Assembly: GCA_028713285.1 (NCBI GenBank)
Contig: JAQTOP010000005.1
Location: 10,682-74,681 of the forward strand
DNA: 64,000 bases
From: Terrimicrobiaceae bacterium
Lineage (GTDB): Bacteria; Verrucomicrobiota; Verrucomicrobiia; Chthoniobacterales; JAATET01
Reading direction: 5' to 3'
Below, in pieces: positions 37,825 through 52,152 of this stretch. Position 1 is the stretch's first letter; every line of letters begins with the position of its first letter. The notes under the pieces were generated by a model that saw only the letters and a program-made list of their open reading frames with translations, was not told the origin of the DNA and searched no databases. The translations under genes and the position numbers were made by a program.

Positions 37825-38562
37825 ATGAAATTGACCGAAATCGTCGCGTATCTGGATGCGGAGCTTCGCACGGCGGAGATCCAGGACTATCCGAACGCGC
37901 ATAATGGCCTGCAGTTGGAGAATGGCGATTCGGTCACACGCGTCGCGTGCGCAGTGGATGCGTGCGAGGCGGTCATCGACGCGGCCTGCGAGGCGAGGGC
38001 GGATTTATTGATCGTGCATCATGGACTGCTGTGGGCCGGAGCGCAGCGAATCGAGGGGGCGCATTATCGCAAGCTCAAGCGCGCGATCGACGCGGGTCTC
38101 GCGATCTACAGCTCGCACCTCCCGCTCGACCGGCACCCGCGCCTCGGCAACAACGCGCTGCTCGCGAAGGCGCTGGGCGTCGGCAAAACCGCTTCGTTTC
38201 TCGAAATCGGCGTCGAGGCGAGAGTGAACCTCACGCTGTCGGTGCTGATCGACCGCGTCGAGCGAGCGGTGGGCGGGCCCGCGCATCTCGCGCCGGGCGG
38301 TCCGGAGCGCGTGCGGCGGCTTGGCATCGTGACGGGCGGCGCCGGCGGCGAGATCGCGAAGGCGGCGGACGCGGGAGTGGACACGTTTCTCACGGGCGAA
38401 GGGCCGCATTGGTCTTACACGGCGGCGGAGGAGTTGGGCGTGAATTTGATCTACGCGGGCCACTACGCGACCGAGACTTTCGGCGTGAAGGCACTGGGCG
38501 CGGAGCTGGAAAAAAAGTTTGGACTGCCGTGGGTGTTCGTCGATCACCCCAGCGGGCTTTAG
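37825..38562 (+). CDS. Nif3-like dinuclear metal center protein (GTP cyclohydrolase 1 type 2 homolog)
   Basis: 'NGLQLEN', 'DLLIVHHGLLW', 'IYSSHLPLDRHP..GNN' and 'DTFLTGEGPHW...AGHYATE'. Confidence 0.85.
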   Translation: MKLTEIVAYLDAELRTAEIQDYPNAHNGLQLENGDSVTRVACAVDACEAVIDAACEARADLLIVHHGLLWAGAQRIEGAHYRKLKRAIDAGLAIYSSHLPLDRHPRLGNNALLAKALGVGKTASFLEIGVEARVNLTLSVLIDRVERAVGGPAHLAPGGPERVRRLGIVTGGAGGEIAKAADAGVDTFLTGEGPHWSYTAAEELGVNLIYAGHYATETFGVKALGAELEKKFGLPWVFVDHPSGL

Positions 38563-39320
38563 ATGGCCGGCATGACGTTTCCGCCGCATACCGGGATGTA
38601 GGCGCCAGAGATGAAGCTCGCCAGGTCGGAAGCGAGGAAGGCCACGACATTCGCGATCTCCTGATCCGTGCCCCGGCGTTTGAGCGGAACTTTCTCTTGG
38701 TAGGTCTGCTGGTGCTCGGTGCCAGACTCGCGGTATTTGTCGCTGATCATCCAGCCGGGCGCGACTTGGTTTACCGTGATCTGGTGCTCGCCGATTTCCT
38801 TCGCCAGCACGCGCAGCACGCCGTCCATGCCGCGCTTGCCCGAAACGTAAGCCGACTGGCTCGGGAAATTTTGCATCGCGCATTCCGTATTGATCGCGAT
38901 CACGCGCCCCGAGCCGCTTGCGATCATGGCGGGGACGAAGGCTTTCGCCATCAGGACATTTTGCAGGACACAGGTCCGAAACTGGCTTTCGTAATCTTCA
39001 ATGCCCTGATCGAGCACCGATACCCAGGAGTATTGAGCCACCGCGTTCGTGACGATGATGTCCGCGGCGCCCAACTGATCGCTCACTGCATCCCGCATTT
39101 TGAAAACGGAGGATTTGTCCGTGATGTCCGCCTGGATGGCAATCGCCCGCCCGCCGCCTGCAACGAGTTCCTCCCGCAGTTCGCGGGCTTTGGTTTCGTT
39201 TTGGAGGTAGTGAATTGCCACGCCGGCACCGCAAGCAGCGAGGGTGCGGGCCATGACCCGCCCAAGCTCGCCGGTTGCCCCGGTAACGACGGCGACTTTT
39301 CCCGAAAGATCGATTTTCAT
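38559..39320 (-). CDS. SDR-family oxidoreductase (3-oxoacyl-ACP reductase-like)
   Basis: 'GKVAVVTGATGELG' (TGxxxGxG), 'NAVA', a catalytic 'S...YVSGK' region, and 'ISGAYIPVCGG'. It lies immediately downstream of, and co-directional with, the 676-aa unassigned gene. Confidence 0.85.
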   Translation of the reverse strand: MKIDLSGKVAVVTGATGELGRVMARTLAACGAGVAIHYLQNETKARELREELVAGGGRAIAIQADITDKSSVFKMRDAVSDQLGAADIIVTNAVAQYSWVSVLDQGIEDYESQFRTCVLQNVLMAKAFVPAMIASGSGRVIAINTECAMQNFPSQSAYVSGKRGMDGVLRVLAKEIGEHQITVNQVAPGWMISDKYRESGTEHQQTYQEKVPLKRRGTDQEIANVVAFLASDLASFISGAYIPVCGGNVMPAI

Positions 39321-39334
39321 GATTGAACCCAAAA

Positions 39335-41365
39335 TTAGCCTTTCTCACGATCGCCAACAAAACCAACGGCGCTTCCTGTGCCCCAGTTGGCCTCGATTTT
39401 TGGCCAGGGAAAATACGACGGGACCGAGGCCCACGGACCGGTAAGAAAAGGAAAGTCGGCATCTGTAAGCCCGTCGATGCTGACCCGGGTATCCTGGGAG
39501 ACGGGAAGGCCGTTGATCAGCGCGTACCGGGGTGTGATACTGCCAGGGGTCCAGGAGGTCTCCAGTTCCAGAGCCGGGCGCTGCGCGCTGGCGGGGCGGC
39601 GATAACGCGTGCGGCGCGTCATCCAGAAATAGTCCGTGAAGAGGCCTGAGGATAATGACTCGATGAAGGCGGCGAGGGACGGATATTCGTCGATGCTTGC
39701 GTGCTCGGCAACGAAACCGCCGAAGACGTTTCGCAGTTCCGCGCAGGTGAACGTGCGAGCAGGGCCTTCGTAAAACGTGCTGCGGAGCACTTCGTAGTTA
39801 TTGATTTTTTCCAGCGTGATTTTCACCGTTTGCGGCTCGGGCAGGAACGCGAGCGGACGGACGGCGATGAGAAGCCGCCCGCGACGGCAGCCCACCCACT
39901 CGCCGTGCGCGACTTCGCCCGACCAGGATTCGCAGGACCGTTTTCCGATGCGGATTTCGTCGGCACCGGCGAAATGCGACGGAAAAATCACCATGTCATT
40001 CAATCGGGTGAGCGGCTGTGGCGGCTGGCCCGCTTCAAAACCGCCCAGGGCCGGTTTGGGAGTCGTCAAAACGAGCGCCGTGGGGCCGGATTGCAGCGTG
40101 ATGAGGTTGGCTTTGGAGCCGAGATTGTCCTGTTCGCCTGAGTTGGAATAGAGGAGGCCATCCGGGCCGGTCGCGGTTTCGATCGTGCCCGGCACCTCCT
40201 CGTTGATGGTGAATTTATGATAGACCGTGCCGACGTCCTTGAAGGACTTGACCTCCGAGGTGCGTTTGTAGGTGGCGACATAATGGGCTGTCTGTTCCAG
40301 GAACCACGGAGTCGAGGAGGTCCCGACAGTAAAGTCCGGCTGCAAAAAGGTCTCGATGCGAATCGGGCGCGCCGGAAAATCCAGCCCCATTCCGCCCGCC
40401 TCCGCGGTGGCCACTGCCTGGAAGGGATAGTTCTTGCGGGCGAACAGTTCCAGGACGCGGGCCGAGGGATGATAGGTTCCGGTGGCATACCAGCATTTCT
40501 CGCTAAGGTTAAATGGAAGATCGCCCTTGTGATGAAGCACCAGGCCGGAACCGGGGTTGAACAATTCCATCGGCGAGGGCCTGACGATGTCCCCCAGCAC
40601 GAACCAAAGCAGGGTGGAAATGCCCGAGGCGTGCGCAAGGGTGTCGATATTATAGGCTCGGGAATAGGGACCAGCCAGAACGCCCATTTCCGGATGAAAC
40701 CTCGCCGCCAGATCCAGCCAGATGCGTTCCTCGATGCCCGCCGCCAGTTCCCTCGCTTCGGGATTCTCGGCATAGTGGGCAATTTTTCCAATCGCCGCGA
40801 GCGTGGCCGCGGAATACGTCGGGGAATTCCATTCGCTGTAAACCCCACGCCGGTAGAGCATGTTGCGAAGCTGACGCAAATTCCAGAGCCCGTGCTCCAC
40901 GGCCTCCGGGTTGTCCAGCAACTCGCCGCCAAGGATCAGGCCCATGGAGGCCTTGGCCGGCATGTTGTCGTTGCCGCCGTGGAATTGATAGTCGGGCCGC
41001 CGGTTCCCCGGCTGGAAGGCAAAGCCATACCGCACCAATTCCTCGAGCTTTTCCCTCACGGCATGGGACATTTTTTCGCGATACACCCTCAAAAGAACCG
41101 CGGCGATGTTGGTATGGAAAATGTCGTAGGGCGCGGGATTCTCCCAGCCCATGTGGGAGATCATCGTATCCCCCGTGAGGATGATCGCATCGGCCAGATC
41201 GTCCAAGCCCTGGTCGTAGAGTCCGCAGCAGATCCAGTAGCGCTCCCTCACCTCTGCCGGCAGGGAATCGGCCGCCCAGTTGCCCGCGGCATCATACCAA
41301 GTTTGCGCCGCGATGACGGCTCGATTTAGAAAAAGCTGAGATCTGCTGGCGAATGTCGAATTCAT
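39335..41365 (-). CDS. Uncharacterised 676-aa protein, paralog A (no family assignable from memory; no signal peptide seen)
   Basis: Long uninterrupted ORF in lower-GC DNA. It shows full-length similarity to the product of 44579..46621, for example 'FHGGNDNMPAKASMGLILGGELL...WNSPTYSAATLAAIGKIAHY...GPYSRAYNID' against 'FHGANDNMPMMASLGLILAGEAL...FNSSTYSAVTLSSAAQIATY...GPQARAYSVD'. Confidence 0.8.
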   Translation of the reverse strand: MNSTFASRSQLFLNRAVIAAQTWYDAAGNWAADSLPAEVRERYWICCGLYDQGLDDLADAIILTGDTMISHMGWENPAPYDIFHTNIAAVLLRVYREKMSHAVREKLEELVRYGFAFQPGNRRPDYQFHGGNDNMPAKASMGLILGGELLDNPEAVEHGLWNLRQLRNMLYRRGVYSEWNSPTYSAATLAAIGKIAHYAENPEARELAAGIEERIWLDLAARFHPEMGVLAGPYSRAYNIDTLAHASGISTLLWFVLGDIVRPSPMELFNPGSGLVLHHKGDLPFNLSEKCWYATGTYHPSARVLELFARKNYPFQAVATAEAGGMGLDFPARPIRIETFLQPDFTVGTSSTPWFLEQTAHYVATYKRTSEVKSFKDVGTVYHKFTINEEVPGTIETATGPDGLLYSNSGEQDNLGSKANLITLQSGPTALVLTTPKPALGGFEAGQPPQPLTRLNDMVIFPSHFAGADEIRIGKRSCESWSGEVAHGEWVGCRRGRLLIAVRPLAFLPEPQTVKITLEKINNYEVLRSTFYEGPARTFTCAELRNVFGGFVAEHASIDEYPSLAAFIESLSSGLFTDYFWMTRRTRYRRPASAQRPALELETSWTPGSITPRYALINGLPVSQDTRVSIDGLTDADFPFLTGPWASVPSYFPWPKIEANWGTGSAVGFVGDREKG

Positions 41366-41600
41366 TGGTGGGAAGGGGTTGAAACTAGAACGGCAGGGGA
41401 ACGGATCAAGATGAAATCACCCTCCCGCCCGGAATGGGTCATTCTCGAGTCTGCACCCGGGATTTTGCCATTGAAGTTGAAGGGAAAATGTTGTCCATGA
41501 TTGGGGCGAAGGGCTCATTGACCATTTAGCTGGCGGATTTCGCCAACTCCCCATACCCTTAAACCTCCTCAGACGAGAAGATTGTCATCAAGTCTGGCCC
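41366..41600. promoter_or_regulatory. Divergent promoter region between paralog A/SDR operon and GH2 operon
   Basis: 235-bp non-coding, comparatively AT-rich spacer between divergently oriented genes. I could not pin down a specific -35/-10 or operator. Confidence 0.4.
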
Positions 41601-43445
41601 TTGTACCCCATGACGCCAACCCCATCCCTCTTTACGCACAACCGAACCGGACTCAGCCTCGACGGCATTTGGAAATTCTGCCCCGACCCCATGCAGCGCT
41701 GCCGCCAGCAAAGGTGGTGGGAGAATCCTTCCAAACAAAATTCGGTCTTCCCCTGTTGGGATCCTGAGGGATTGTGGGAGATTCAAGTTCCTTCCACTTG
41801 GAAGAAGCAGTTCAAGGCGCTGGAGTGGTATGATGGGCATGCGGTTTATTACAGGACTTTCAATAAACCGAAAGAGATACCGTCGTCCTATGAGGCTTTT
41901 CTGGTTTTTGACGGGATTGTTTATGCCTCCGAGGTATTTCTCAATGGCCAGAAGATGGGCGAACACGGCTGGGGATATTCCCAGTTCGCAGTTCGAGTGA
42001 CCGAAACCCTTCAGGAACGCAACGAACTCTTCGTGCTGGTCGAGAACGTCCCCTCGCTGCAGCGAGCCCCCGGAGTACGATTTGACTGGTGCAATGATGG
42101 CGGAATCATCAACGGCGTGAAGCTGGTTTTCGTCCCACGCACATTCATCCAGAATTTCAAAGTCAGCACCGTGCTCTCGCAGGATGCGGTGTCGCTGGAA
42201 TTCGATCTATTCCTTGCATCGCGGGATGCGGCGGCTTGCGAAGAGGTGACGATTGAAATTCCTGAATTGAAGCTAAGTGCCACCGTGAAGGCGGAAGCCG
42301 GCAAGGTCGCCTCGCACAAATTCAGAGTCTCGAAGAACGACGTGAAGCTTTGGTGCCCTGAGAACCCAAAGTTATACGACGTGAAGCTATCGACGCGAAA
42401 TGAGGCCATAGGTGATGAGATTGGCTTCCGCGAAATCAAAACCAAAGGCCACGAAATCCTGCTCAACGGGGAGCCCATCCGACTCTATGGCTTGTGTGTG
42501 CACTCGGAATTCCCCGACACGGGCCGCACGGCCACAGTTGAAAACATCCGAAAGATGGTCGGGAAAGCCGGGGAACTCGGGGTGAACTTCCTGCGTTGCG
42601 CTCATTACCCCTACGCGGAGATATTCGGACGGGAGATGGATCGCGCCGGACTGCTTTGGTGGGAGGAGGTTCCGGTTTATTGGATACCGGCCATTAAGGA
42701 GGAGGAAGTTTCGTCCTTGGTGCTGGGGATGCTGGAGGAAACGATCCGTCGAGATTGGAACCGCTCGAGTCTCATCATGTGGTCGATTTCCAATGAGTGC
42801 TGCTATCGCGACCCCAAGAACCCGATGGATAATAATTATGACTATTGGTTCAAGGCGGCCAGGTTGGTGCGGAAACTCGATCCTACCCGACTGCTGACCT
42901 GTGCGGAATCGGGCAATATCGTTTCCACCAGCACCGCCTGGTCTCCCACGAAGGGAGATGAGTTTACCGGGGTGGGCAAGCCGCAAGTGGAGGAAAACCA
43001 CCGCCCCATGCACACGGATGAATTATACACCCTCTTCGATGTCCTGGCCGCCAATCTTTATGTCGCGAATCCCGGCGAGGAAGCGGTGCTTTATCCGAGG
43101 TTTGTGCGTCTGCTTTCGCCATATAACAAACCGCTCATGCTGAGTGAGTTTGGCTCCATGTCCCTGTTGGGAGCGAAGGTTCCGGATGACGTGCTCGGGA
43201 GCGAGGCTCGCCACGCTTTGATGATTGAAAAGGCCTATGATGTTTTCAAGGAACTGCCGGAAATCACCGGTTATTGTCCCTGGGTTTTGCTCGATGGACG
43301 CGCTCCGATTCATTGGAGATGGTATAATCTGGGAACTGGATTGTTCCGTTACGGATTCCTCAATGAAAACTGGGAGCCCAAGCAGGCGTTCTTCGCCCTG
43401 AAAAAGGGAATCGACCAGGTGAAAAACCATTTCAAGCAATCCTAG
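41601..43445 (+). CDS. Glycoside hydrolase family 2-like enzyme (beta-glucuronidase/beta-galactosidase fold)
   Basis: N-terminal sugar-binding jelly-roll ('LDGIWKF', 'WYDGHAVYYRTF', 'FLVFDGIVYASEVFLNGQKMGEH') and a TIM barrel ('NFLRCAHYPY'). Acid/base 'WSISNECC' (NE) and nucleophile 'MLSEFGS' (E) are retained. Confidence 0.8.
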   Translation: MYPMTPTPSLFTHNRTGLSLDGIWKFCPDPMQRCRQQRWWENPSKQNSVFPCWDPEGLWEIQVPSTWKKQFKALEWYDGHAVYYRTFNKPKEIPSSYEAFLVFDGIVYASEVFLNGQKMGEHGWGYSQFAVRVTETLQERNELFVLVENVPSLQRAPGVRFDWCNDGGIINGVKLVFVPRTFIQNFKVSTVLSQDAVSLEFDLFLASRDAAACEEVTIEIPELKLSATVKAEAGKVASHKFRVSKNDVKLWCPENPKLYDVKLSTRNEAIGDEIGFREIKTKGHEILLNGEPIRLYGLCVHSEFPDTGRTATVENIRKMVGKAGELGVNFLRCAHYPYAEIFGREMDRAGLLWWEEVPVYWIPAIKEEEVSSLVLGMLEETIRRDWNRSSLIMWSISNECCYRDPKNPMDNNYDYWFKAARLVRKLDPTRLLTCAESGNIVSTSTAWSPTKGDEFTGVGKPQVEENHRPMHTDELYTLFDVLAANLYVANPGEEAVLYPRFVRLLSPYNKPLMLSEFGSMSLLGAKVPDDVLGSEARHALMIEKAYDVFKELPEITGYCPWVLLDGRAPIHWRWYNLGTGLFRYGFLNENWEPKQAFFALKKGIDQVKNHFKQS

Positions 43446-43479
43446 AACCGCATAGCCTCTCCATTTCCCACCCTAAATT

Positions 43480-44529
43480 ATGTCCGCTCCCACTCCCAAC
43501 AAAATCCCCATTGCAATTGTCGGTCTGAACTTCGGCCGCTGGATCGTCGCGGATCGCGACAAACCGGAGGGGCTGGGAAAATATTTTGAACTGGTGTCCG
43601 TATGCGATCTCGACCCGGCGCGAGCGCATGACATTGCGACCAAAGCCGGTGTTCCGGCCTGCACGAATCTCGACGAGATTTTGACGAATCCGAAAATCCC
43701 GGTGGTCGGGATATTTACCAGCCCGTCCGGCCGGTCGGATCTGATCCGCAAGGCAATCCGCGCCGGAAAGGACGTGATGACGACGAAGCCCTTTGAGACC
43801 GACGCCGAAAAGGCGGGGGCATTGCTGGAGGAAGCCCGGGCGCTGGGCCGCGTGGTGCATCTCAATTCGCCGGGGCCTCTTGTGCCGCCCGATCTGCAAC
43901 GCATTGAAGAATGGCGCGAGCAGTATCAACTGGGTCGTCCAATTGGCGGACGGGCGGAGGTGTATGCGAGCTATCGCGAGAAGGCCAATGGCAGCTGGTA
44001 TGACGATCCGGACAAATGCGCGGTGGCGCCGATTTTCCGGCTCGGAATTTATGTGATCAACGATCTGGTGCGGCTCTTTGGCGAGGCGGAATCGGCGCAA
44101 GTGCTGAAATCGAGGATCTTTACGGAACGTCCGACGCCGGATAACGCGCAGTTGGGAATCCTGTTCAAGAGCGGTGCGGTGGCGAGCGTCTTCGCCTCGT
44201 TTTGCATCGACGACGGCCAGCCCTACGCGAGCTCGACGACTTTGCATTTCGAGAACGGTACGATCTACCGCAACGTGGGGCGGCTGGCTTTCGGCGGCGG
44301 ACCGAAAGCCCCGACGAAGGTTCATGTGGTCGCGCGTCGGAACGGGGAGCCCGTGATCGAATCGGCGGAATATGCCAATGGCAGCGGCGAGTATCAGTGG
44401 GAGGCATTTTATCGCGCCATTCACGGCGAGAAGTTGGAAACGCCCCGCGAAGTGGTCATCGGAGGATTGCGCATCATCGCGGCAATGGCGCGGGCAGAGA
44501 AATCGGGTGCGACCGAGCCGGTGCGGTGA
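43480..44529 (+). CDS. Gfo/Idh/MocA-family NAD(P)-dependent oxidoreductase
   Basis: Rossmann N-terminus 'IPIAIVGLNFGRWI', 'ELVSVCDLDPARA', 'DVMTTKPF' (EKP-like motif) and a C-terminal alpha/beta dimerisation domain. Confidence 0.85.
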   Translation: MSAPTPNKIPIAIVGLNFGRWIVADRDKPEGLGKYFELVSVCDLDPARAHDIATKAGVPACTNLDEILTNPKIPVVGIFTSPSGRSDLIRKAIRAGKDVMTTKPFETDAEKAGALLEEARALGRVVHLNSPGPLVPPDLQRIEEWREQYQLGRPIGGRAEVYASYREKANGSWYDDPDKCAVAPIFRLGIYVINDLVRLFGEAESAQVLKSRIFTERPTPDNAQLGILFKSGAVASVFASFCIDDGQPYASSTTLHFENGTIYRNVGRLAFGGGPKAPTKVHVVARRNGEPVIESAEYANGSGEYQWEAFYRAIHGEKLETPREVVIGGLRIIAAMARAEKSGATEPVR

Positions 44530-44578
44530 CTCCGTTTCGGCCAGGGCCGACGCCGACTCGAACAAACGGGAAAACATT

Positions 44579-46621
44579 GTGAAGTGGACAGTCGAATCAC
44601 AAAACGCGAGGCGAGGGGCGTTTTACTCCAAAACTCGCGAACATTTGCATGAGGTGGTGGACGAAAATGGGGTCGGAAAGATTCCGCAGTTCAATCCGCC
44701 CTGGCGCGAGCCGGTTTGGATCCTTCCGGCGCTCTATACCGGGCCGCAAGAGTTTATCGACATCGCCAACAAAATGGTGGCGCGTTATCACGACCCGTTT
44801 GCCCCGGACGGAAAAAGCGCGAAAGCTTTCAACATTTTTCAGACCAATCATTTCTCCCATCTTTTGCATCGTTTTGGCGGCCATCTGACGCCTCCGGCGC
44901 GCGAAGTGATGACCTGGCAGGCCGAACAAGCGTGCAAGACGTTGCGCGGATCGGGCCAGCCGGACACGAAATTCCACGGTGCCAACGACAACATGCCCAT
45001 GATGGCTTCGCTGGGATTGATCCTGGCGGGCGAGGCGTTGGGCAATGAACGGGCCATCGAGCAAGGGATATGGAATCTGAACCAATTCCGGCGGCTTTTG
45101 TCGCGCGCGGCGTGGGCGTCGGAATTCAATTCCTCCACTTATTCCGCCGTGACGCTTTCTTCAGCGGCCCAGATCGCGACCTATTCGCGCGACGCGGGCA
45201 TCCGGCAATTGGCGCGGCAGATCGAGCACCGGCTCTGGGCGGAAATATTGCTGCATTACCATCCGGGCACTTTCTGCCAGGCCGGGCCACAGGCGCGGGC
45301 CTATTCGGTCGATCAAGCCGGCCACAACCATTCCGTGCAGGCACTGCTCTGGATGGTCTTTGGCGAGGAATCGACCGGACGCAATATCCTGGACAGTTAT
45401 TTCAACCCGGACGGCACGGAGGTGGTCCATTTCGAGGGAACGTATTTCCAGAACATCGCGGAGTATTGCCACTTCATGGACGCGGACTTTCAAGTGCCGG
45501 AGGAGTTGGCGGACCTGATCGTTCGCCGTCAATATCCGGCCCGGCTTCGCGGACGGGCGGAGATCATGGGCCGCTGTGAAAACATGGCGGCGGAAGGCCA
45601 GACCTGCACTTATATGGAGGAGGATTTTTCGCTTGGCAGCCTGAACGGCCCGTGGGTTGACGGTTCGCAGACGTTGAGCCTTTTCCTTACTTTCAAGCGA
45701 ATCGCGCGCCCTGAAGCGTGGCGCGACGCGGCGACGGCGTTTTTGAAATACATGGCGGACGACGTGAAGATGGGCGCGAAGGACCGCTCCGCGGATGGCA
45801 AATACGAGAGCGACCGGTTCATCCGCAACCTGGGCTGGTTTTACACCATCCAGAAAGACAACGTCGTGGCGGTGCTGGCGACTCCGAATTTGAAGGCTGC
45901 GCCATCGCCAACGAGCGCCTTGAAGTTGAAAGTCGTCTTTCCCGCGCATTATGGACGCATCTCCCGAAGCGTCATCGGCGACGGGCCGGTGATGGATGGC
46001 GCCGCGGGCGAGAGCGCCGAAGTCGTTCCGGTTTCCATCGAAGCAGGCCAGGTGTTCGTTCATCTCCAGCCGCTTCTTCCGACCAGCCTGCCTCGCGCGG
46101 CGGCGGTGCGGTTCGTGCGGGAGAATGAATACGAGGTTTTGGAGCTGATCAACTATGAAGGCCCTGAACGTGCCTTCAGCCGAACTGAACTTGCCCGGGC
46201 CTTGAATGGCCTGGTGATGACCGTGAAGGCAAAAAAGGAATTCGACTCGCTGGAGGAATTTCACACAAAAATGTCGCGCTCGCTCGTCACCGACTACTTC
46301 AGCCACGAACACCGGTTTTTCCTGTTCCAACGGGAGGACGTGGAATTCGACGTGCTCTATTCTCCCGATCCTTTCGGCGCCCAGACCGAGGCCATCGATG
46401 GACGGCACGTGCCGCGGCCGATTTTTCAGTCGAACCAAATCGACGTGGAGCGCCTTCCTTTCATGACTGGTCCGGTGGAGCGCAACCAGGCGTTCTTCCC
46501 TTGGGGAGATACGCTCGCCATGCCTCCGTGGCCAAATGCGTGGATGATCGGGTCGCGCGGATTGCCGGGCGAAGGAAATTATGCACGGCGAAACGACAAT
46601 CCCAACCTGGATTGTCTTTGA
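44579..46621 (+). CDS. Uncharacterised ~680-aa protein, paralog B
   Basis: Same family as 39335..41365 along the whole length, also in the C-terminal third ('YEVLELINYEGPERAF...LVTDYF' against 'YEVLRSTFYEGPARTF...LFTDYF'). The GTG at 44579 is the first plausible start after the upstream stop. The start is inferred. Confidence 0.75.
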   Translation: MKWTVESQNARRGAFYSKTREHLHEVVDENGVGKIPQFNPPWREPVWILPALYTGPQEFIDIANKMVARYHDPFAPDGKSAKAFNIFQTNHFSHLLHRFGGHLTPPAREVMTWQAEQACKTLRGSGQPDTKFHGANDNMPMMASLGLILAGEALGNERAIEQGIWNLNQFRRLLSRAAWASEFNSSTYSAVTLSSAAQIATYSRDAGIRQLARQIEHRLWAEILLHYHPGTFCQAGPQARAYSVDQAGHNHSVQALLWMVFGEESTGRNILDSYFNPDGTEVVHFEGTYFQNIAEYCHFMDADFQVPEELADLIVRRQYPARLRGRAEIMGRCENMAAEGQTCTYMEEDFSLGSLNGPWVDGSQTLSLFLTFKRIARPEAWRDAATAFLKYMADDVKMGAKDRSADGKYESDRFIRNLGWFYTIQKDNVVAVLATPNLKAAPSPTSALKLKVVFPAHYGRISRSVIGDGPVMDGAAGESAEVVPVSIEAGQVFVHLQPLLPTSLPRAAAVRFVRENEYEVLELINYEGPERAFSRTELARALNGLVMTVKAKKEFDSLEEFHTKMSRSLVTDYFSHEHRFFLFQREDVEFDVLYSPDPFGAQTEAIDGRHVPRPIFQSNQIDVERLPFMTGPVERNQAFFPWGDTLAMPPWPNAWMIGSRGLPGEGNYARRNDNPNLDCL

Positions 46622-46700
46622 AAACGAGTGTTCGACAGACCTTCAGGATCCTTGAGTCCAGGGCATGCCCGAATCGATCGTCCGTAACAGAGGTCAGGCG

Positions 46701-47531
46701 ATGAATTCCAGGTTGGACATTGATATTTCATTCTGCTGGCCGATTGCCGAATCCGTGACGCCCGAGGAAGGGTTGGCGCGTTTGCGGGAGGCTGGTTTTG
46801 AAGGGATCGAACTCTGGCCCCCGTCTCTGGAGAAATTTGGCGCGCAACGCTGGGCCACCGCGCTGGAGGCCACCGGAATGCGCTGTTTCCAACTTTGTCC
46901 GTATTTTGATTTTGTGCATGGGCCGGAGCGCATCGAGCAGAGCCGGGCGGATCTCCTGGCGTATCTGGAGGCGGCGGAGGCGATGAAATGCGAGCGGCTG
47001 CGCGTCTTTACGGGCCCCCCCTGGGGAGAGGGGGTGGTCGGCGCGTCCGAAGCGACGGAGGAACAGTGGCAGGCCGCCATCGAGGGATTGCGCGAGTTTT
47101 GTGATGTGGCGGCGCAGCGCGGGGTGGAGCTTTGTTTGGAATGCCACGAAGGCAGTCTGATGGAAGACGCCCCCTCTGCGCTGCGCATCTTGAATTCCGT
47201 GGATCGGAGCAATCTGACGGTCAATCTCCAGATTCCTTTTCCGAACGAGGACTGGAGAGTAAGCCTCGAAAAACTTGCGTCGCATACCACGCACATTCAT
47301 ATCCACAATTGGACGGAAGGGCCCGGCGCGGGGGAGCTGACTTTCCTCTCCGAGGGCGTATTCGATTGGCTTCCGGTGCTGGAGCGGATCCGCCGGGAGC
47401 GAAACCATGCGTCCCTGTGTTTGTCGATCGAACATGCGGATCATCATGGACGCCATGATCCCTGGGAGACCGCCCGCCGCGATGGACCATATTTGAGCCG
47501 GCTGCGGGGTGCATCATTACGCCCGGAGTAA
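46701..47531 (+). CDS. Sugar phosphate isomerase/epimerase (xylose isomerase-like TIM barrel, AP_endonuc_2 fold)
   Basis: 'AGFEGIELW', 'CERLRVFTGP', 'GVELCLECHEGSL' and 'HIHIHNW' are typical metal-ligand-bearing strands of this fold. Confidence 0.8.
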   Translation: MNSRLDIDISFCWPIAESVTPEEGLARLREAGFEGIELWPPSLEKFGAQRWATALEATGMRCFQLCPYFDFVHGPERIEQSRADLLAYLEAAEAMKCERLRVFTGPPWGEGVVGASEATEEQWQAAIEGLREFCDVAAQRGVELCLECHEGSLMEDAPSALRILNSVDRSNLTVNLQIPFPNEDWRVSLEKLASHTTHIHIHNWTEGPGAGELTFLSEGVFDWLPVLERIRRERNHASLCLSIEHADHHGRHDPWETARRDGPYLSRLRGASLRPE

Positions 47532-47897
47532 GCTCTGCCGGGTTGTCCGGCCGTCAAGGAAGGCCGAAGTATGTGCTAACTCGGAGGATCGCGGCGGGTG
47601 AATAGTCGTTTTCGGGCGGATGCAGAGCGTCGGACCGTGGATGAACGGAACCAGGTCACTCCGTCGCAGGCTTGCGGTTGTCTTCAGGCGTGTCGCAGCA
47701 GGGGGGATCGCCGGGATACGGGCCATTCGAAAGGAAGGATTTCGCCTCTTCCGGAAGTGCCGGCCGCCAGTTTCCGCCACTCAAACGCCGGGGCGCGCCA
47801 CATTTGTGAGCGGGGAGTCGCACCCTTTGCAGTCATCGCATCCCAGGCAGCTTGAGTATCGAGAGTATTGCTTGAAGTTGATTTTGCCGCAGACAGG

Positions 47898-48536
47898 ATG
47901 GTCGCCGTGAGTCCCTTGTCTTCGCGCATCCGCATGTTGAGGCTCCGGCAGCAGCGCACTTTGTCGGACGTTGCGAAGCGATGCGGGTTCACCGCCAGCC
48001 TTCTCTCCAAGATCGAGTCAGGGAAGACGTCCCCGCCGATTGCGACGCTTGCAAAGATCGCGGAAGCACTCGGGGTGGGCCTTGGGAACCTGCTTGATGG
48101 AAAACAGGACAGCTCGACGGTTCTGACCCTCGCCCAACATCGGGCGGTGAATTTGGCGACGGAGACGGATAAAGGATACGGTTTTCATCTCCTGGCCGCG
48201 GAGCGGGCGGATAAAATCATGCAGCCGTTCATTTTTGTCGCGGAACGCGGCAGGATCAAACCGGGCGTGATGGCCCATTGCGGGGAGGAGTTCGTCTATG
48301 TTCTGGAGGGCAGGATGCGATACAGCGTCGGCAAGATCACCTATTCACTTGGACCGGGCGACTCGCTCTATTTCAGCTCGGAGGAGGAACATGACCTCGA
48401 GCCCGTGACCGCAAAGGTCAAATATCTCGCGGTTTTTGTCGAACGGGTTCAGCCCGTGAAGAAGGCTTCGCCAACAACGAAAAGCAGGGCGCGGCGGCGG
48501 CGCGATCCGCCAGCATCGCCGGCCAGCCGGGCGTGA
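47898..48536 (+). CDS. XRE-family transcriptional regulator with C-terminal cupin domain
   Basis: HTH 'IRMLRLRQQRTLSDVAKRCGFTASLLSKIESGKTSPPIATLAKIAEALGV', then cupin 'HCGEEFVYVLEGRMRYSVGKITYSLGPGDSLYFSSEEEH'. The basic C-terminal tail is atypical. Confidence 0.8.
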   Translation: MVAVSPLSSRIRMLRLRQQRTLSDVAKRCGFTASLLSKIESGKTSPPIATLAKIAEALGVGLGNLLDGKQDSSTVLTLAQHRAVNLATETDKGYGFHLLAAERADKIMQPFIFVAERGRIKPGVMAHCGEEFVYVLEGRMRYSVGKITYSLGPGDSLYFSSEEEHDLEPVTAKVKYLAVFVERVQPVKKASPTTKSRARRRRDPPASPASRA

Positions 48537-48548
48537 GTTGCCCGGCGG

Positions 48549-51027
<2,479 letters not shown>

Positions 51028-51038
<11 letters not shown>

Positions 51039-52152
51039 CGGGTTCCTTGGTTGCCTCGGTTGGTTTCGGAATCGAGACTTTCGTCATGTCCGGTTCCGGA
51101 AGCTGTTTTAGTGTCGCGCGAATGAGGGCCGCCCGCAAGGCATCGCGTGCCTCGGCAGTCATTTTCTGGCCCTGGGCGCCCTTCTGCAAATGCGCGGGCT
51201 GCGTCTCGATGAACAACTCGTCGATCATCACGCGGGCGCTGTCGGGAAAAAGGCCGAGGTCGGTGCCGAGCTTGAGGACCGAGAGGAGGTTGAGAGCCTC
51301 CTTCGAGGTCATGCTGTGGGCGTTGCAGAGGATGCCGTAGGCGCGGCCGATCTGATCGAGCACGGTGGTCGCACGGCGCTCGACGAGGGCCTGTCGGGCG
51401 TTTTCTTCGTGCTCGACGATGTGGACGATGACTTCGTGGAGCCGGTCAATGATTTGCTCTTCGCTCTCACCGAGCGTGGTCTGGTTCGAGACCTGGAAGA
51501 GATTTCCCATGGCCTCCGTGCCTTCGCCATGGAGGCCGCGCACGGCAAGGCCGATCTTGTTTACCGAATTGATGATCTTGTTGATCTGATCGCTCATCAC
51601 GAGGCCGGGGAGGTGCAGCATGGCGGAAGCGCGCATGCCCGTGCCGACATTGGTGGGGCACGCGGTGAGGTAGCCGAGATTTTCGTGGTAGGCGAAGTCG
51701 AGCCGGGTCGCGAGCTCGGTGTCGCATCGATCGACCATCGCGTAGGCCTCGCGGAGCTGGAGCCCGCAACGAATGGCCTGCATGCGAAGGTGGTCTTCCT
51801 CGTTGATCATGAAACTGAGGGTCTGTTCCGCGTTCATGACGACGGCACTTCCCGCGCCCTTGGCGGCATGTTCGCGGCTGATCAGATGCCTTTCCACAAG
51901 CACCTGCCGTTCCAACGCGGTGAGCTCGGTGAGATTCTGCACGCAGGCGTCGTGCATCTCCGGCAACAATTCGATGGCGGGCCGGATCAACCCCAGCGTC
52001 TCGACGCGTTCGGCGCGTTTCGCCCAGCCGGGAAAGGCGGTGCGGGTGAGATTTCGTGCGAGGCGGATGCGGCTGCTCACGACGACCTGCCGGTGTGGGC
52101 CGTCGCCCGAGAGCCATTCCCCCGCATTTGAGATGATGCGGGAGAGCTTCAT
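51028..52152 (-). CDS. mcsB: Protein arginine kinase McsB (ATP:guanido phosphotransferase)
   Basis: 'VVVSSRIRLARNL', 'EEDHLRMQ', 'LGYLTACPTNVGTGMRASAMLHLPGL' and 'GEGTEA..NLFQVSNQ' are phosphagen-kinase catalytic blocks. Confidence 0.9.

What the first reader, a model, noticed from the sequence alone, without database searches (positions are those of the whole stretch)
39335..46621. Two full-length paralogs (676 and ~680 aa) of a protein family I cannot assign, bracketing a glycoside-processing gene set
Seen directly:
- The products of 39335..41365 (-) and 44579..46621 (+) align along their entire length.
- The central block is 'DYQFHGGNDNMPAKASMGLILGGELLDNPEAVEHGLWNLRQLRNML...SEWNSPTYSAATLAAIGKIAHY...IEERIWLDLAARFHPEMGVLAGPYSRAYNID' against 'DTKFHGANDNMPMMASLGLILAGEALGNERAIEQGIWNLNQFRRLL...SEFNSSTYSAVTLSSAAQIATY...IEHRLWAEILLHYHPGTFCQAGPQARAYSVD'.
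- The C-terminal blocks are 'YEVLRSTFYEGPARTF' against 'YEVLELINYEGPERAF', and 'TDYF'.
- Identity looks roughly 30-40% by eye, so this is an old duplication under selection and not a recent repeat.
- Neither protein has an obvious signal peptide.

Inference:
- The helix-rich N-terminal half followed by a beta-rich C-terminal half is reminiscent of (alpha/alpha)-toroid plus beta-sandwich polysaccharide lyases and some glycoside hydrolases.
- I recognise no diagnostic motif of a characterised family.

Two diverged copies inside one sugar locus suggests either a hetero-oligomer or two sequential, related activities.
Basis: partly seen in the sequence, partly recalled or inferred. Interest (0 to 1): 0.7.

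Follow-up and report, generated by a model that had tools for sequence, protein, structure and literature searches.

The report
Two paralogs of an uncharacterised lyase-fold family
The two ~680-residue proteins are real, anciently diverged paralogs of a large bacterial enzyme family with no name or database model, whose predicted fold is that of the toroid-plus-sandwich polysaccharide lyases, so they are good candidates for a new carbohydrate-active enzyme family, with chemistry and substrate still unknown.

Summary
A (39335..41365, -, 676 aa) and B (44579..46621, +, 680 aa, GTG start) align over 625 residues at 30% identity (E 9e-85).

- **No known family by sequence.** Neither protein, nor any of about 135 relatives scanned, matches Pfam. 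A and B also have no NCBIfam hit, and no PDB sequence matches.
- **Fold.** AlphaFold2 models are very confident (pLDDT 95.6 and 95.9). Each has an N-terminal alpha/alpha toroid and a C-terminal beta-sandwich. Foldseek hits are almost all toroid-type polysaccharide lyases (PL8/12/15/17/21/33/35) and dermatan-sulfate epimerase. The similarity is remote (E 1e-7 to 1e-8, TM 0.3-0.46, ~10% identity).
- **Size and spread.** The superfamily holds about 1,768 clusters at 50% identity and at least 36 subfamilies. It occurs in PVC bacteria, Armatimonadota, Cohnella/Paenibacillus and Zobellia.
- **Conserved residues.** N134, E178, Y184 and R236 are invariant. Asn, Tyr and Arg echo the lyase active site. 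The canonical His is not clearly present; Glu sits at both of its usual linear positions.
- **Context.** All locus proteins look cytoplasmic. The recurrent neighbours are a glucuronidase-clade GH2 that lacks the N-x-K carboxylate motif, and Gfo/Idh/MocA oxidoreductases.
- **Pairing.** A and B share a locus in only 2 of 83 loci, so an obligate heteromer is unlikely.

My best guess is independent cytoplasmic lyase-like enzymes acting on acidic oligosaccharides (confidence ~0.4). A hydrolase is a serious rival.

The parts
39335..41365 (-). Paralog A, 676 aa. It belongs to subfamily 'A' of an unnamed toroid + beta-sandwich family and is 100% identical to the NCBI hypothetical protein PHC88_01990 (Terrimicrobiaceae MAG).
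   Evidence: AF2 pLDDT 95.6, pTM 0.95
40436..41365 (-). A residues 1-310: alpha/alpha toroid domain, about 14 helices.
   Evidence: DSSP of the AF2 model; coordinates checked
39338..40435 (-). A residues 311-676: antiparallel beta-sandwich region.
40958..40981 (-). A motif H129-G-G-N132-D133-N134-M-P at the N-cap of helix 134-149. N134 is invariant in 106 close and 71 distant relatives. It is the candidate carboxylate neutraliser.
40814..40852 (-). A loop R172...S-E178-W-N-S181-P-T-Y184. E178 and Y184 are invariant. Y184 sits at the N-cap of helix 184-198 and is the candidate general acid/base.
40643..40660 (-). A motif R236-A-Y238-N-I-D241. R236 is invariant and Y238 is kept in 65/71 distant relatives.
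40400..40402 (-). A E322, in the first strand of the beta domain. It is invariant in close relatives and Glu/Asp in 63/71 distant ones. It occupies the linear position of the second catalytic His of PL12/15/17/21/35.
41366..41600 (.). 235-bp divergent intergenic region between A and the GH2 gene; presumed shared control region. The same divergent A/GH2 arrangement recurs in locus L001.
   Evidence: no convincing promoter consensus found
41601..43445 (+). GH2 glycosidase of the beta-glucuronidase/beta-galacturonidase clade. The catalytic Glu pair is kept, but the N-x-K carboxylate motif is replaced by F-R-Y. The true start may be the ATG at 41610.
43480..44529 (+). Gfo/Idh/MocA NAD(P)-dependent oxidoreductase, 349 aa.
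44579..46621 (+). Paralog B, 680 aa, GTG start, subfamily 'B'. The equivalent residues are N136-D137-N138, E182, Y188, H228, R240, H284 and E328. The NCBI record starts it 95 codons too late (585 aa).
46665..47531 (+). Xylose-isomerase-like TIM barrel (AP_endonuc_2), 288 aa. Its closest solved relative is AsbF, a 3-dehydroshikimate dehydratase.
38559..39332 (-). SDR oxidoreductase, 257 aa. It lies immediately downstream of A, with a 2-bp gap between A's stop codon and the SDR start codon, so it is probably co-transcribed with A.
47868..48536 (+). HTH_3 + cupin transcription regulator (PuuR-like architecture); likely the locus regulator.

Best explanation
A and B are two anciently diverged members of a large, unnamed bacterial enzyme superfamily. 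Its fold is an N-terminal alpha/alpha toroid followed by a C-terminal beta-sandwich. That is the architecture of the toroid-type polysaccharide lyases (PL8/12/15/17/21/33/35) and of dermatan-sulfate epimerase.

Shown:
- Homology of A and B, and the confident fold.
- Absence from Pfam, NCBIfam and PDB sequences.
- One conserved residue cluster on one face of the toroid.
- No signal peptides on any protein of the locus.
- Recurrent linkage to a particular GH2 subfamily and to Gfo/Idh/MocA oxidoreductases.
- A and B are mostly found apart.

Inferred:
- Each protein is a stand-alone cytoplasmic enzyme that cleaves imported oligosaccharides. These are probably acidic and derived from O-acetylated glycans.
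- The chemistry is lyase-type: Y184 acts as general acid/base at a uronate C5-H / C4-O bond, N134 (with N132) neutralises the carboxylate, and R236 with other conserved Arg residues binds the anion.
- A carboxylate (E178 and/or E322) takes over the role of the His used by known families.
- A and B share the chemistry but differ in subsite specificity. Fixed clade-specific differences include W481/W490/R494 in A against A/P/E in B.
- The GH2, Gfo/Idh/MocA, SDR and TIM-barrel enzymes trim and funnel the products.
For: - Homology: 30% identity over 625 aa, E 9e-85.
- Models: pLDDT 95.6/pTM 0.95 for A and 95.9/0.94 for B, with helices to about residue 310 and strands after that.
- Foldseek against PDB: 17 of the top 20 hits for A, and all 25 top hits for B, are toroid lyases or DS-epimerase 1 (the other three for A are GH127 HypBA1 chains). 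They include 6hzn, Alg17c 4ojz/4nei, GAGase VII 8khw, PL8 1cb8/1n7n/2x03/2e22, heparinase II 3e7j, heparinase III 4fnv, PL33 8r71 and exoHep 6lja. Probability is 1.00 and E is 1e-7 to 2e-8. Against the viral library, only the PL23 lyase ODV-E66 appears.
- Conservation: N134, E178, Y184 and R236 are invariant in 106 close and 71 distant relatives. N132, D133, H224, Y238 and E/D322 are kept in 61-65 of 71. R40, R172 and R214 are kept in 56-59 of 71.
- Placement: these residues lie in three consecutive outer-to-inner helix connections (114-134, 173-184, 223-241), that is, on one face of the toroid.
- Spacing: N134 to Y184 is 50 residues. The Asn-to-Tyr spacing is 54-59 in PL8/12/15(exoHep)/17/35 and 63 in PL23 (Table 4 of PMC12088678).
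- Location: no signal peptides anywhere in the locus. In Cohnella the A ortholog directly follows ABC sugar-transporter genes.
- Neighbours: GH2 of the same subfamily is adjacent in 9 of 83 loci and within 10 kb in 15-20. Gfo/Idh/MocA is adjacent in 10-13. Acetyl-esterases (GDSL, SASA, CE2) occur in about 19.
- Independence: A and B share a locus only in the window and in L001-3.
- Specificity: clade-specific fixed differences between A and B.
Against: - The structural similarity is remote (TM 0.3-0.46, 7-12% identity).
- I could not superpose models, so the equivalence of N134/Y184/R236 with lyase catalytic residues rests on linear order and helix position only.
- No His is invariant. Glu sits where PL8/PL23 have His (E178, 6 residues before the Tyr). 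Glu/Asp (E322) or Gln (Q358) sits where PL12/15/17/21/35 have it.
- Two conserved carboxylates are what a glycoside hydrolase would show.
- No GH88 homolog is near any of the 88 close loci.
- The SDR and TIM-barrel partners of the window are not recurrent.
- The partner GH2 lacks the N-x-K uronate-carboxylate motif, which weakens the case for a uronate substrate.
- Gfo/Idh/MocA genes are very numerous in these phyla, so part of that linkage may be background.
Confidence: 0.4

Rival explanations
1. A and B are glycoside hydrolases, or hydratases of an unsaturated or keto sugar, built on a lyase-like scaffold. E178 and E322 (possibly D133 or D241) would be the catalytic carboxylates. Y184, N134 and the Arg residues would only bind substrate.
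For: E178 is invariant and E/D322 is kept in 63/71 distant members; D133 in 61/71 and D241 in 53/71. No invariant His is present. No unsaturated-uronyl hydrolase (GH88) is nearby. The partner GH2 lacks the uronate N-x-K motif. Weaker Foldseek hits to GH127/GH146 hydrolases, which have toroid-first architecture, exist.
Against: All strong structural neighbours are lyases or epimerases, not hydrolases. The GH127/146 hits are poor (TM 0.21-0.27). Their Cys/Zn site has no counterpart, since no Cys is invariant. The invariant Asn/Tyr/Arg trio is the hallmark of the lyase clan.
Confidence: 0.27
2. A and B are not bond-cleaving enzymes. They would be epimerases or isomerases (C5 epimerisation like DS-epimerase), or an accessory step of an oxidative glycoside pathway run by the adjacent Gfo/Idh/MocA and TIM-barrel enzymes, of the 3-keto-glycoside elimination type.
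For: DS-epimerase 1 (6hzn) is the top Foldseek hit for both A and B. Gfo/Idh/MocA is the most frequent enzymatic neighbour, adjacent in 10-13 of 83 loci. The window also has a sugar-phosphate-isomerase-like TIM barrel, and that pair defines the known oxidative pathway (bioRxiv 10.1101/2024.03.25.586180).
Against: The DS-epimerase hit is no better in TM than the lyase hits. The known oxidative pathway needs no toroid protein and uses DUF1080, which was not seen here. The window Gfo scores 26.6 bits against the BT_2159 model, whose cut-off is 650. The TIM barrel is not a recurrent neighbour. Gfo/Idh/MocA genes are so abundant in these phyla that some linkage is expected by chance.
Confidence: 0.13
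3. A and B form an obligate hetero-oligomer, with one catalytic and one accessory subunit. This was one of the first reader's two options.
For: They lie 3.2 kb apart in one locus here. The same A-GH2...B combination recurs in one other lineage, L001 (A 59%, B 55% identity).
Against: Only 2 of 83 non-redundant loci carry both. In at least 5 MAGs they sit on different contigs. The Cohnella loci show only A, and the Victivallales MAGs recovered carry 2-4 B copies and no A-type. Both keep every invariant residue, so neither looks like a degenerate partner. Tandem A-A-A arrays also exist (L018).
Confidence: 0.05

Closest known systems
PL17 oligoalginate lyase Alg17c (4NEI/4OJZ) and PL15 exo-lyases (Atu3025 3A0O, exoHep 6LJA)
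   Same: They share the two-domain toroid + beta-sandwich architecture and a size of about 700 aa. They act in exo fashion on oligosaccharides inside the cell envelope. An Asn sits at a helix N-cap, followed about 55 residues later by a Tyr at the N-cap of the next inner helix. Foldseek gives E 1e-7 with probability 1.0.
   Different: Identity is only about 10%, with no profile match. The His ~155-166 residues after the Tyr (His413 in PL17, His531/His555 in PL15) has no His counterpart; the family has E322/Q358 in that region. The first His (beside Asn201 in PL17, ~54 before the Tyr in PL15) is replaced by N-D-N. The substrate is unknown, and no alginate-pathway genes are nearby.
PL8 chondroitin AC / hyaluronate / xanthan lyases (1CB8, 1RWA, 1N7N, 2E22)
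   Same: Same architecture. The linear order Asn ... (His) ... Tyr ... Arg resembles N134 ... E178 ... Y184 ... R236. The Arg position in PL8 is from my memory of the PL8 literature; the Asn, His and Tyr positions are from PMC12088678 Table 4.
   Different: Glu replaces the His that lies 9 residues before the Tyr. TM is 0.32-0.41. PL8 enzymes are secreted and endo-acting; A and B are cytoplasmic.
PL35 GAGases (8KHV/8KHW)
   Same: This is the best TM normalised to the target (0.44-0.46). PL35 has an Asn-Asn dyad (N191-N192) as neutraliser, comparable to N132-x-N134, and a Tyr 54 residues later.
   Different: His401/His397 is essential in PL35 and has no conserved His equivalent here. There is no sequence relationship.
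Human dermatan-sulfate epimerase 1 (6HZN)
   Same: It is the top Foldseek hit for both paralogs (E 1.4e-7 and 2.4e-8). It uses lyase-type C5 proton abstraction on a uronate.
   Different: Identity is 10-11% and TM 0.39. It is a eukaryotic Golgi enzyme with His/Tyr/His catalysis.
GH127/GH146 beta-L-arabinofuranosidases (HypBA1 3WKX; DUF1680)
   Same: Toroid-first, beta-sandwich-after architecture, and cytoplasmic exo-enzymes.
   Different: The structural match is much weaker (TM 0.21-0.27, E 1e-4 to 1e-2). There is no DUF1680 Pfam hit and no conserved Cys for the Cys/Zn catalytic centre.

Membership tests
Toroid-type polysaccharide lyase clan (PL8/12/15/17/21/23/33/35/39) and DS-epimerase | N-terminal (alpha/alpha)n toroid followed by an antiparallel beta-sandwich domain | tested here: met
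   AF2 models with pLDDT 95.6/95.9. Foldseek top hits are all or nearly all from this clan, with probability 1.0 and E 1e-7 to 2e-8, but TM is only 0.3-0.46.
Toroid-type polysaccharide lyase clan | Conserved Asn (or Asn/His) neutraliser and catalytic Tyr about 54-59 residues apart, at the N-termini of successive inner helices | tested here: inconclusive
   N134 and Y184 are invariant, 50 residues apart, and both sit at helix N-caps. This compares with Table 4 of PMC12088678.
Toroid-type polysaccharide lyase clan | Catalytic His acting as Bronsted base, either 8-9 residues before the Tyr (PL8/23) or 130-166 residues after it (PL12/15/17/21/35) | tested here: not met
   By linear position only, E178 (invariant) and E/D322 or Q358 occupy those places. 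H224 (63/71) and H278 (45/60) are conserved His residues at non-canonical positions and could still be spatially equivalent.
Toroid-type polysaccharide lyase clan | Sequence-profile membership of a described lyase domain (Lyase_8, Hepar_II_III, Alginate_lyase, DUF4962 and similar) or of a solved lyase | tested here: not met
   No Pfam hit in 66 close plus 71 distant members, apart from one marginal Alginate_lyase hit at E 0.0025. No NCBIfam hit. The family profile against PDB sequences gives nothing.
Toroid-type polysaccharide lyase clan | Beta-elimination producing a 4,5-unsaturated uronate | not testable with these tools
   This needs an enzyme assay (A232-235, MS or NMR of products).
Toroid-type polysaccharide lyase clan | Genomic linkage to downstream handling of unsaturated uronates (GH88/GH105, KduI/KduD, KDG kinase/aldolase) | tested here: not met
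   No GH88 homolog in 88 loci, by single-sequence phmmer, so this is a weak test. The window SDR is not KduD-like by NCBIfam. GH88 lies beside only the distant Zobellia member.
GH127/GH146 (DUF1680) | DUF1680 profile match and a Cys nucleophile with a Cys3-Glu zinc site | tested here: not met
   No Pfam hit. No invariant Cys in 106 sequences. Foldseek TM is 0.21-0.27.
Oxidative 3-keto-glycoside cleavage cluster (BT2156-2160 / AL1-4) | Gfo/Idh/MocA 3-dehydrogenase + sugar-phosphate-isomerase-like 1,2-lyase + DUF1080 lyase/hydratase | tested here: inconclusive
   Gfo/Idh/MocA and AP_endonuc_2 are present. However, the Gfo scores 26.6 bits against the BT_2159 model cut-off of 650. No DUF1080 was seen in the locus. 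The toroid family is not part of the described pathway.
GH2 beta-glucuronidases (applies to the neighbour gene, not to A/B) | N-x-K motif that binds the glucuronate carboxylate, plus the catalytic Glu pair | tested here: not met
   The Glu pair is kept (ISNE, LSEFG). The motif is NRK in 6D1N/7VQM/6D8K/6NCY and NKK in E. coli GUS. It is F-R-Y in the window protein and [KY]-R-H in its orthologs next to family members.

The most novel reading that the evidence does not exclude
A and B found two subfamilies of a new carbohydrate-active enzyme family. It would be a lyase-fold family in which carboxylates (E178, E322) replace the catalytic His of every known toroid lyase. That implies either a new variant of the beta-elimination mechanism or a lyase scaffold converted to hydrolysis. 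It would work with a dedicated glucuronidase-clade GH2 that has lost its carboxylate-binding Lys, possibly on modified uronates (for example amidated or esterified) from O-acetylated glycans.
Probability: 0.4. Interest if true: 0.65.

Novelty: new variant of a known kind. Interest (0 to 1): 0.5.

Why it matters
The superfamily is large, at about 1,768 clusters at 50% identity. It is common in glycan-degrading soil, freshwater, gut and marine bacteria: Verrucomicrobiota, Lentisphaerota, Planctomycetota, Armatimonadota, Paenibacillaceae and Zobellia. Yet it has no Pfam or NCBIfam model, no solved structure and no name.

It sits next to glycosidases, esterases and sugar transporters. It is therefore likely to be a missing step in the breakdown of some complex, probably acidic, polysaccharide. 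Characterising it could add a CAZy family and improve annotation of polysaccharide loci in PVC bacteria, where a large share of genes are 'hypothetical'. It could also show how the toroid-lyase active site works without its canonical histidine. It is not a new kind of biology, because the fold class and the general role are familiar.

Tried and rejected
- **Sequence families.** I searched Pfam, NCBIfam and PDB sequences with A, B, and profiles or sets of 66-106 relatives. Nothing came up beyond noise.
- **GH127/GH146 membership.** Rejected. There is no DUF1680 hit and no conserved Cys, and TM is poor.
- **Uronate evidence from the GH2.** The closest solved relatives are beta-glucuronidases/galacturonidases. 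The diagnostic N-x-K motif is absent, so I no longer count the GH2 as evidence for a uronate.
- **GH88 near family members.** None found in 88 loci (the first attempt, used a wrong reading frame).
- **Conservation of the window's SDR, TIM barrel and regulator near relatives.** Not recurrent.
- **Known oxidative 3-keto-glycoside pathway.** The Gfo is far below the BT_2159 cut-off and the toroid protein is not a component.
- **Third homolog search with distant representatives.** It only re-found 'hypothetical' proteins.
- **Literature searches** for a characterised member. None was found; two searches were swamped by irrelevant hits.
- **Promoter/terminator scan.** Not informative.
- **Viral structure library.** Only weak PL23 ODV-E66 hits.
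- **Antisense ORFs.** The 40217..41329 (+) ORF and others appear 'conserved' in 73 loci only because they shadow the real gene. They are artefacts.

Full report
**1. Observation**

A is 39335..41365 on the minus strand, with an ATG start and 676 aa. B lies in the 44372..46621 plus-strand ORF. The GTG at 44579 gives a 680-aa product.

The GTG start fits the gene layout, because the upstream Gfo/Idh/MocA gene ends at 44529. It also fits the ~685-aa length of B orthologs and the confident modelling of the first 95 residues. BLASTP of A against B gives 30% identity and 47% positives over 625 columns, with E 9e-85. All quoted peptide blocks are present.

**2. Source and locus**

A is 100% identical to 'hypothetical protein PHC88_01990' of a Terrimicrobiaceae (Verrucomicrobiota) MAG, on an 85,863-bp contig.

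Pfam and NCBIfam give this map:

| Coordinates | Strand | Gene |
|---|---|---|
| 38559..39332 | - | SDR, immediately downstream of A (2-bp gap between A's stop codon and the SDR start) |
| 39335..41365 | - | A |
| 41366..41600 | . | 235-bp divergent intergenic region |
| 41601..43445 | + | GH2 |
| 43480..44529 | + | Gfo/Idh/MocA |
| 44579..46621 | + | B |
| 46665..47531 | + | xylose-isomerase-like TIM barrel |
| 47868..48536 | + | HTH_3 + cupin regulator |

The flanks are housekeeping genes: NIF3, ychF, glmS and glgC upstream, and clpC and an McsB-like kinase downstream. None of the seven locus proteins has a signal peptide. The pathway is therefore cytoplasmic.

**3. No sequence-level family**

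- A and B have no Pfam or NCBIfam hit and no PDB sequence match.
- A profile of 106 relatives finds nothing among PDB sequences.
- None of 66 close relatives hits any Pfam model repeatedly.
- Of 71 distant relatives, one gives a marginal Alginate_lyase hit at E 0.0025 and one carries a GNAT fusion.
- Every source name is 'hypothetical protein'. A few UniRef labels read 'Alginate lyase domain-containing' or 'Heparinase II/III-like'.

**4. Family size and structure**

An exhaustive profile search of 1.84 billion representatives finds 1,768 clusters (at 50% identity) at E <= 1e-3. Of these, 961 are at <= 1e-10 and 329 at <= 1e-30.

In a sample of 357 full-length members there are at least 36 groups at 35% identity. 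A sits in a group of 107 (mean 56% identity to A, 31% to B). B sits in a group of 124 (58% to B, 31% to A). A third group, P0108-P0120, is roughly equidistant from both.

Carriers are Verrucomicrobiota, Lentisphaerota/Victivallales, Kiritimatiellia, Planctomycetota, Armatimonadota, Cohnella/Paenibacillus, and a few Acidobacteriota and Spirochaetes. Genomes often carry several copies. A distant branch occurs in Zobellia. The A/B split therefore predates the spread of both subfamilies across phyla.

**5. Fold**

AF2 with family alignments gives pLDDT 95.6 / pTM 0.95 for A and 95.9 / 0.94 for B. Each model has about 14 helices up to residue ~310, followed by a beta-rich region.

Foldseek against the PDB returns the toroid-type lyase clan:

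- DS-epimerase 1 (6hzn), which is top for both paralogs
- PL17 Alg17c
- PL35 GAGase VII
- PL8 chondroitin AC, hyaluronate and xanthan lyases
- PL21 heparinase II
- PL12 heparinase III
- PL33
- PL15 exoHep

All have probability 1.00 and E 1e-7 to 2e-8. But TM is only 0.30-0.46 and identity 7-12%. GH127/GH146 appear much lower (TM 0.21-0.27). The viral library gives only PL23 ODV-E66, weakly.

**6. Conserved residues**

Across 106 close relatives the invariant residues are W44, F83, G130, N132, D133, N134, P136, G147, R172, E178, Y184, R214, W216, H224, R236, G258 and E322, plus a few in the beta domain.

Across 71 distant representatives:

| Residue(s) | Conservation |
|---|---|
| N134, E178, Y184, R236 | 71/71 |
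| N132 | 65/71 |
| D133 | 61/71 |
| H224 | 63/71 |
| Y238 | 65/71 |
| E/D322 | 63/71 |
| H278 | 45 of 60 non-gap |
| R40, R172, R214 | 56-59/71 |

Mapped on the model's secondary structure, almost all of these lie in three consecutive connections from an outer helix to the next inner helix. These are residues 114-134, 173-184 and 223-241. They therefore sit on one face of the toroid, which is where toroid lyases and hydrolases have their cleft.

**7. Comparison with lyase catalytic residues**

Table 4 of PMC12088678 lists, for PL8/12/15/17/21/23/35:

- an Asn neutraliser (in some families Asn with His, or Arg, or Glu);
- a Tyr 54-59 residues later (63 in PL23);
- a His, either 8-9 residues before that Tyr (PL8, PL23) or 130-166 residues after it (PL12/15/17/21/35).

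Here N134 to Y184 is 50 residues. That fits, and both residues sit at helix N-caps two helices apart. At the two 'His' positions, however, the family has E178 (6 residues before the Tyr) and E322 (+138), or Q358. H224 and H278 are conserved histidines at non-canonical positions.

The Asn/Tyr/Arg part of the lyase signature is plausibly present. The His part is not shown. The four conserved arginines suggest an anionic substrate.

**8. Genomic context of relatives**

I fetched 80 loci from species-representative genomes, plus 8 via exact-protein look-ups and the window's own 30-kb region. After removing duplicates, 83 loci remained. I clustered ORFs without prior bias and annotated cluster representatives.

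| Neighbour | Loci of 83 | Notes |
|---|---|---|
| GntR/periplasmic-binding-type regulators | 25 | |
| Gfo/Idh/MocA | 19-21 | directly adjacent in 10-13 |
| GH2 | 15-20 | adjacent in 9, next to A-, B- and other-clade members |
| AraC regulators | 13 | |
| Pfam-less proteins of 1,100-1,300 aa | 11 + 11 + 8 | three clusters |
| GDSL/CE2/SASA esterases | ~19 | |
| Pectate-lyase-like beta-helix proteins | 5 | |
| URO-D-like proteins | 6 | |

In Cohnella/Paenibacillus an ABC sugar transporter lies immediately upstream of the A ortholog. It is followed by several Gfo/Idh/MocA genes, a CN-hydrolase and an AP_endonuc_2 protein.

The window's SDR, TIM barrel and regulator are not recurrent partners. 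No GH88 was found near close relatives. A GH88 does sit in the SusC/D locus of the distant Zobellia member, together with a GH95-like gene.

By a rough estimate, GH2 adjacency (11% of loci) is far above what gene frequency would give. Gfo/Idh/MocA adjacency is perhaps 4-5 fold above it. That estimate is my inference, not a computed background.

**9. The GH2 partner**

Its best solved relatives are the glucuronidase/galacturonidase group: 7vqm at E 2.8e-74, then 6d89, 6d8k, 6ncy and BuGUS-1 6d1n. The acid/base and nucleophile Glu residues are kept.

The N-x-K carboxylate-binding motif reads NRK in those structures and NKK in E. coli GUS. In the window protein it is F-R-Y. In the orthologs that sit beside family members in L001, L054, L058 and L062 it is [KY]-R-H. 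Only the GH2 in L049 has NRK.

This is a distinct, uncharacterised GH2 subfamily. It cannot be used as proof of a uronate substrate.

**10. Pairing of A and B**

Both types occur in one locus only in the window and in L001-3. In L001-3 the order is GH2 divergent from A, as in the window, with B 7 kb downstream (A 59%, B 55% identity).

In at least five MAGs both types are present on different contigs. The Victivallales MAGs recovered carry two to four B copies and no A-type locus. The Cohnella loci show only A. Termite-gut Verrucomicrobiales have A-A-A tandems.

Both subfamilies keep all invariant residues. They differ at 24 clade-fixed positions. These include a charge reversal and the loss of two Trp in a beta-domain hairpin: A has W481/W490/R494 where B has A/P/E. 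A also has H279 where B has F. This fits two independent enzymes with the same chemistry and different subsite specificity. It does not fit an obligate heteromer.

**11. Mechanism**

My best-supported reading (about 0.4) is as follows.

- A and B are cytoplasmic, stand-alone, lyase-type enzymes. They act on imported oligosaccharides that are probably acidic and derived from acetylated glycans.
- Y184 is the acid/base, N134/N132 the neutraliser and R236 the anion binder. A carboxylate stands in for the usual His.
- The GH2 and the redox and TIM-barrel enzymes process the products.

The main rival (about 0.27) is a hydrolase or hydratase that uses E178/E322 on a lyase-like scaffold. An epimerase, or an accessory role in a Gfo/Idh/MocA oxidative pathway, gets about 0.13. 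An obligate heteromer gets about 0.05. The fold, conservation and context are shown. The chemistry and the substrate are inferred.

**12. Novelty and verdict**

The family is unnamed and, as far as these libraries and the searchable literature show, uncharacterised. It belongs to a familiar structural and functional class, so I rate it a new variant of a known kind. It is a candidate new CAZy family with an atypical catalytic constellation.

Interest is about 0.5. It would be a solid target for enzyme discovery and would improve annotation of PVC and Armatimonadota glycan loci. It is not surprising in kind.

Noticed in passing
window 44579..46621 (+): The public NCBI annotation of paralog B (PHC88_02010, P0121) is 585 aa. 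It starts 95 codons downstream of the GTG at 44579. Orthologs are about 685 aa, and the missing N-terminus contains invariant residues (W47, F87 in B numbering) and confidently modelled helices. The deposited start is probably wrong.
   Followed up: yes
window 41601..43445 (+); also L001:7805-9751, L054:2801-4741, L058:2450-4354, L062:5866-7773: This is a GH2 subfamily related to gut beta-glucuronidases/galacturonidases. It keeps the catalytic Glu pair but has F-R-Y or [KY]-R-H in place of the N-x-K carboxylate-binding motif. It recurs next to the toroid family, so it is probably an uncharacterised specificity.
   Followed up: partly
window 40000..48000: GC content drops to 0.556-0.60 across the A-GH2-Gfo-B-TIM locus, against 0.62-0.67 in the flanks. 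This is compatible with horizontal acquisition of the locus. The closest B homolog (73%) is from a Phycisphaerae MAG.
   Followed up: no
window 40217..41329 (+) and 45161..46438 (-): Long ORFs antisense to A and B. The one opposite the family gene clusters across 73 loci only because it shadows the conserved real gene. It is an artefact, not a gene.
   Followed up: yes
L018:7015-13344; L022:3-3874; L028: Tandem arrays of two or three A-type paralogs (A-A-A) occur in Verrucomicrobiales MAGs (isolates Gx481_bin192 and Gx485_bin111). This shows local expansion of the family.
   Followed up: no
L043:3992-7447, L053:1785-5687, L034:2902-6465 (representatives): Three clusters of very large (1,100-1,300 aa) proteins with essentially no Pfam match lie next to family members in 8-11 loci each. 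They are usually co-directional with the family gene. They may be further unknown glycan-active components.
   Followed up: no
L004/L019 (Cohnella endophytica RBZM01000007.1, 111.8-133.9 kb): The A ortholog follows an ABC sugar transporter. After it come four or five Gfo/Idh/MocA genes, an 883-aa Pfam-less protein, a CN-hydrolase and an AP_endonuc_2 protein. An M20 peptidase and L-serine dehydratase subunits lie upstream. This hints at an amide-modified sugar substrate, possibly an amino-acid-amidated uronate. That is speculation.
   Followed up: no
L090 (Zobellia galactanivorans FP476056.1, 327-349 kb): A distant family member (CAZ94333.1, annotated 'hypothetical periplasmic protein') sits in a SusC/SusD polysaccharide utilisation locus. 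The locus also holds a GH95-like gene, an 859-aa Pfam-less protein, a 1,687-aa multidomain protein and, on the opposite strand, a GH88. This is a tractable model organism for testing the family.
   Followed up: partly
L056:12801-13976 and 5 other loci: URO-D-like (uroporphyrinogen-decarboxylase-fold, methyltransferase-type) proteins recur within 10 kb of family members. This may be related to O-methylated sugars.
   Followed up: no
window 48549..52152 (-): A ClpC-type AAA+ chaperone and an ATP:guanido phosphotransferase (McsB-like protein arginine kinase) lie directly downstream of the sugar locus in this verrucomicrobial MAG. They are unrelated to the finding.
   Followed up: no
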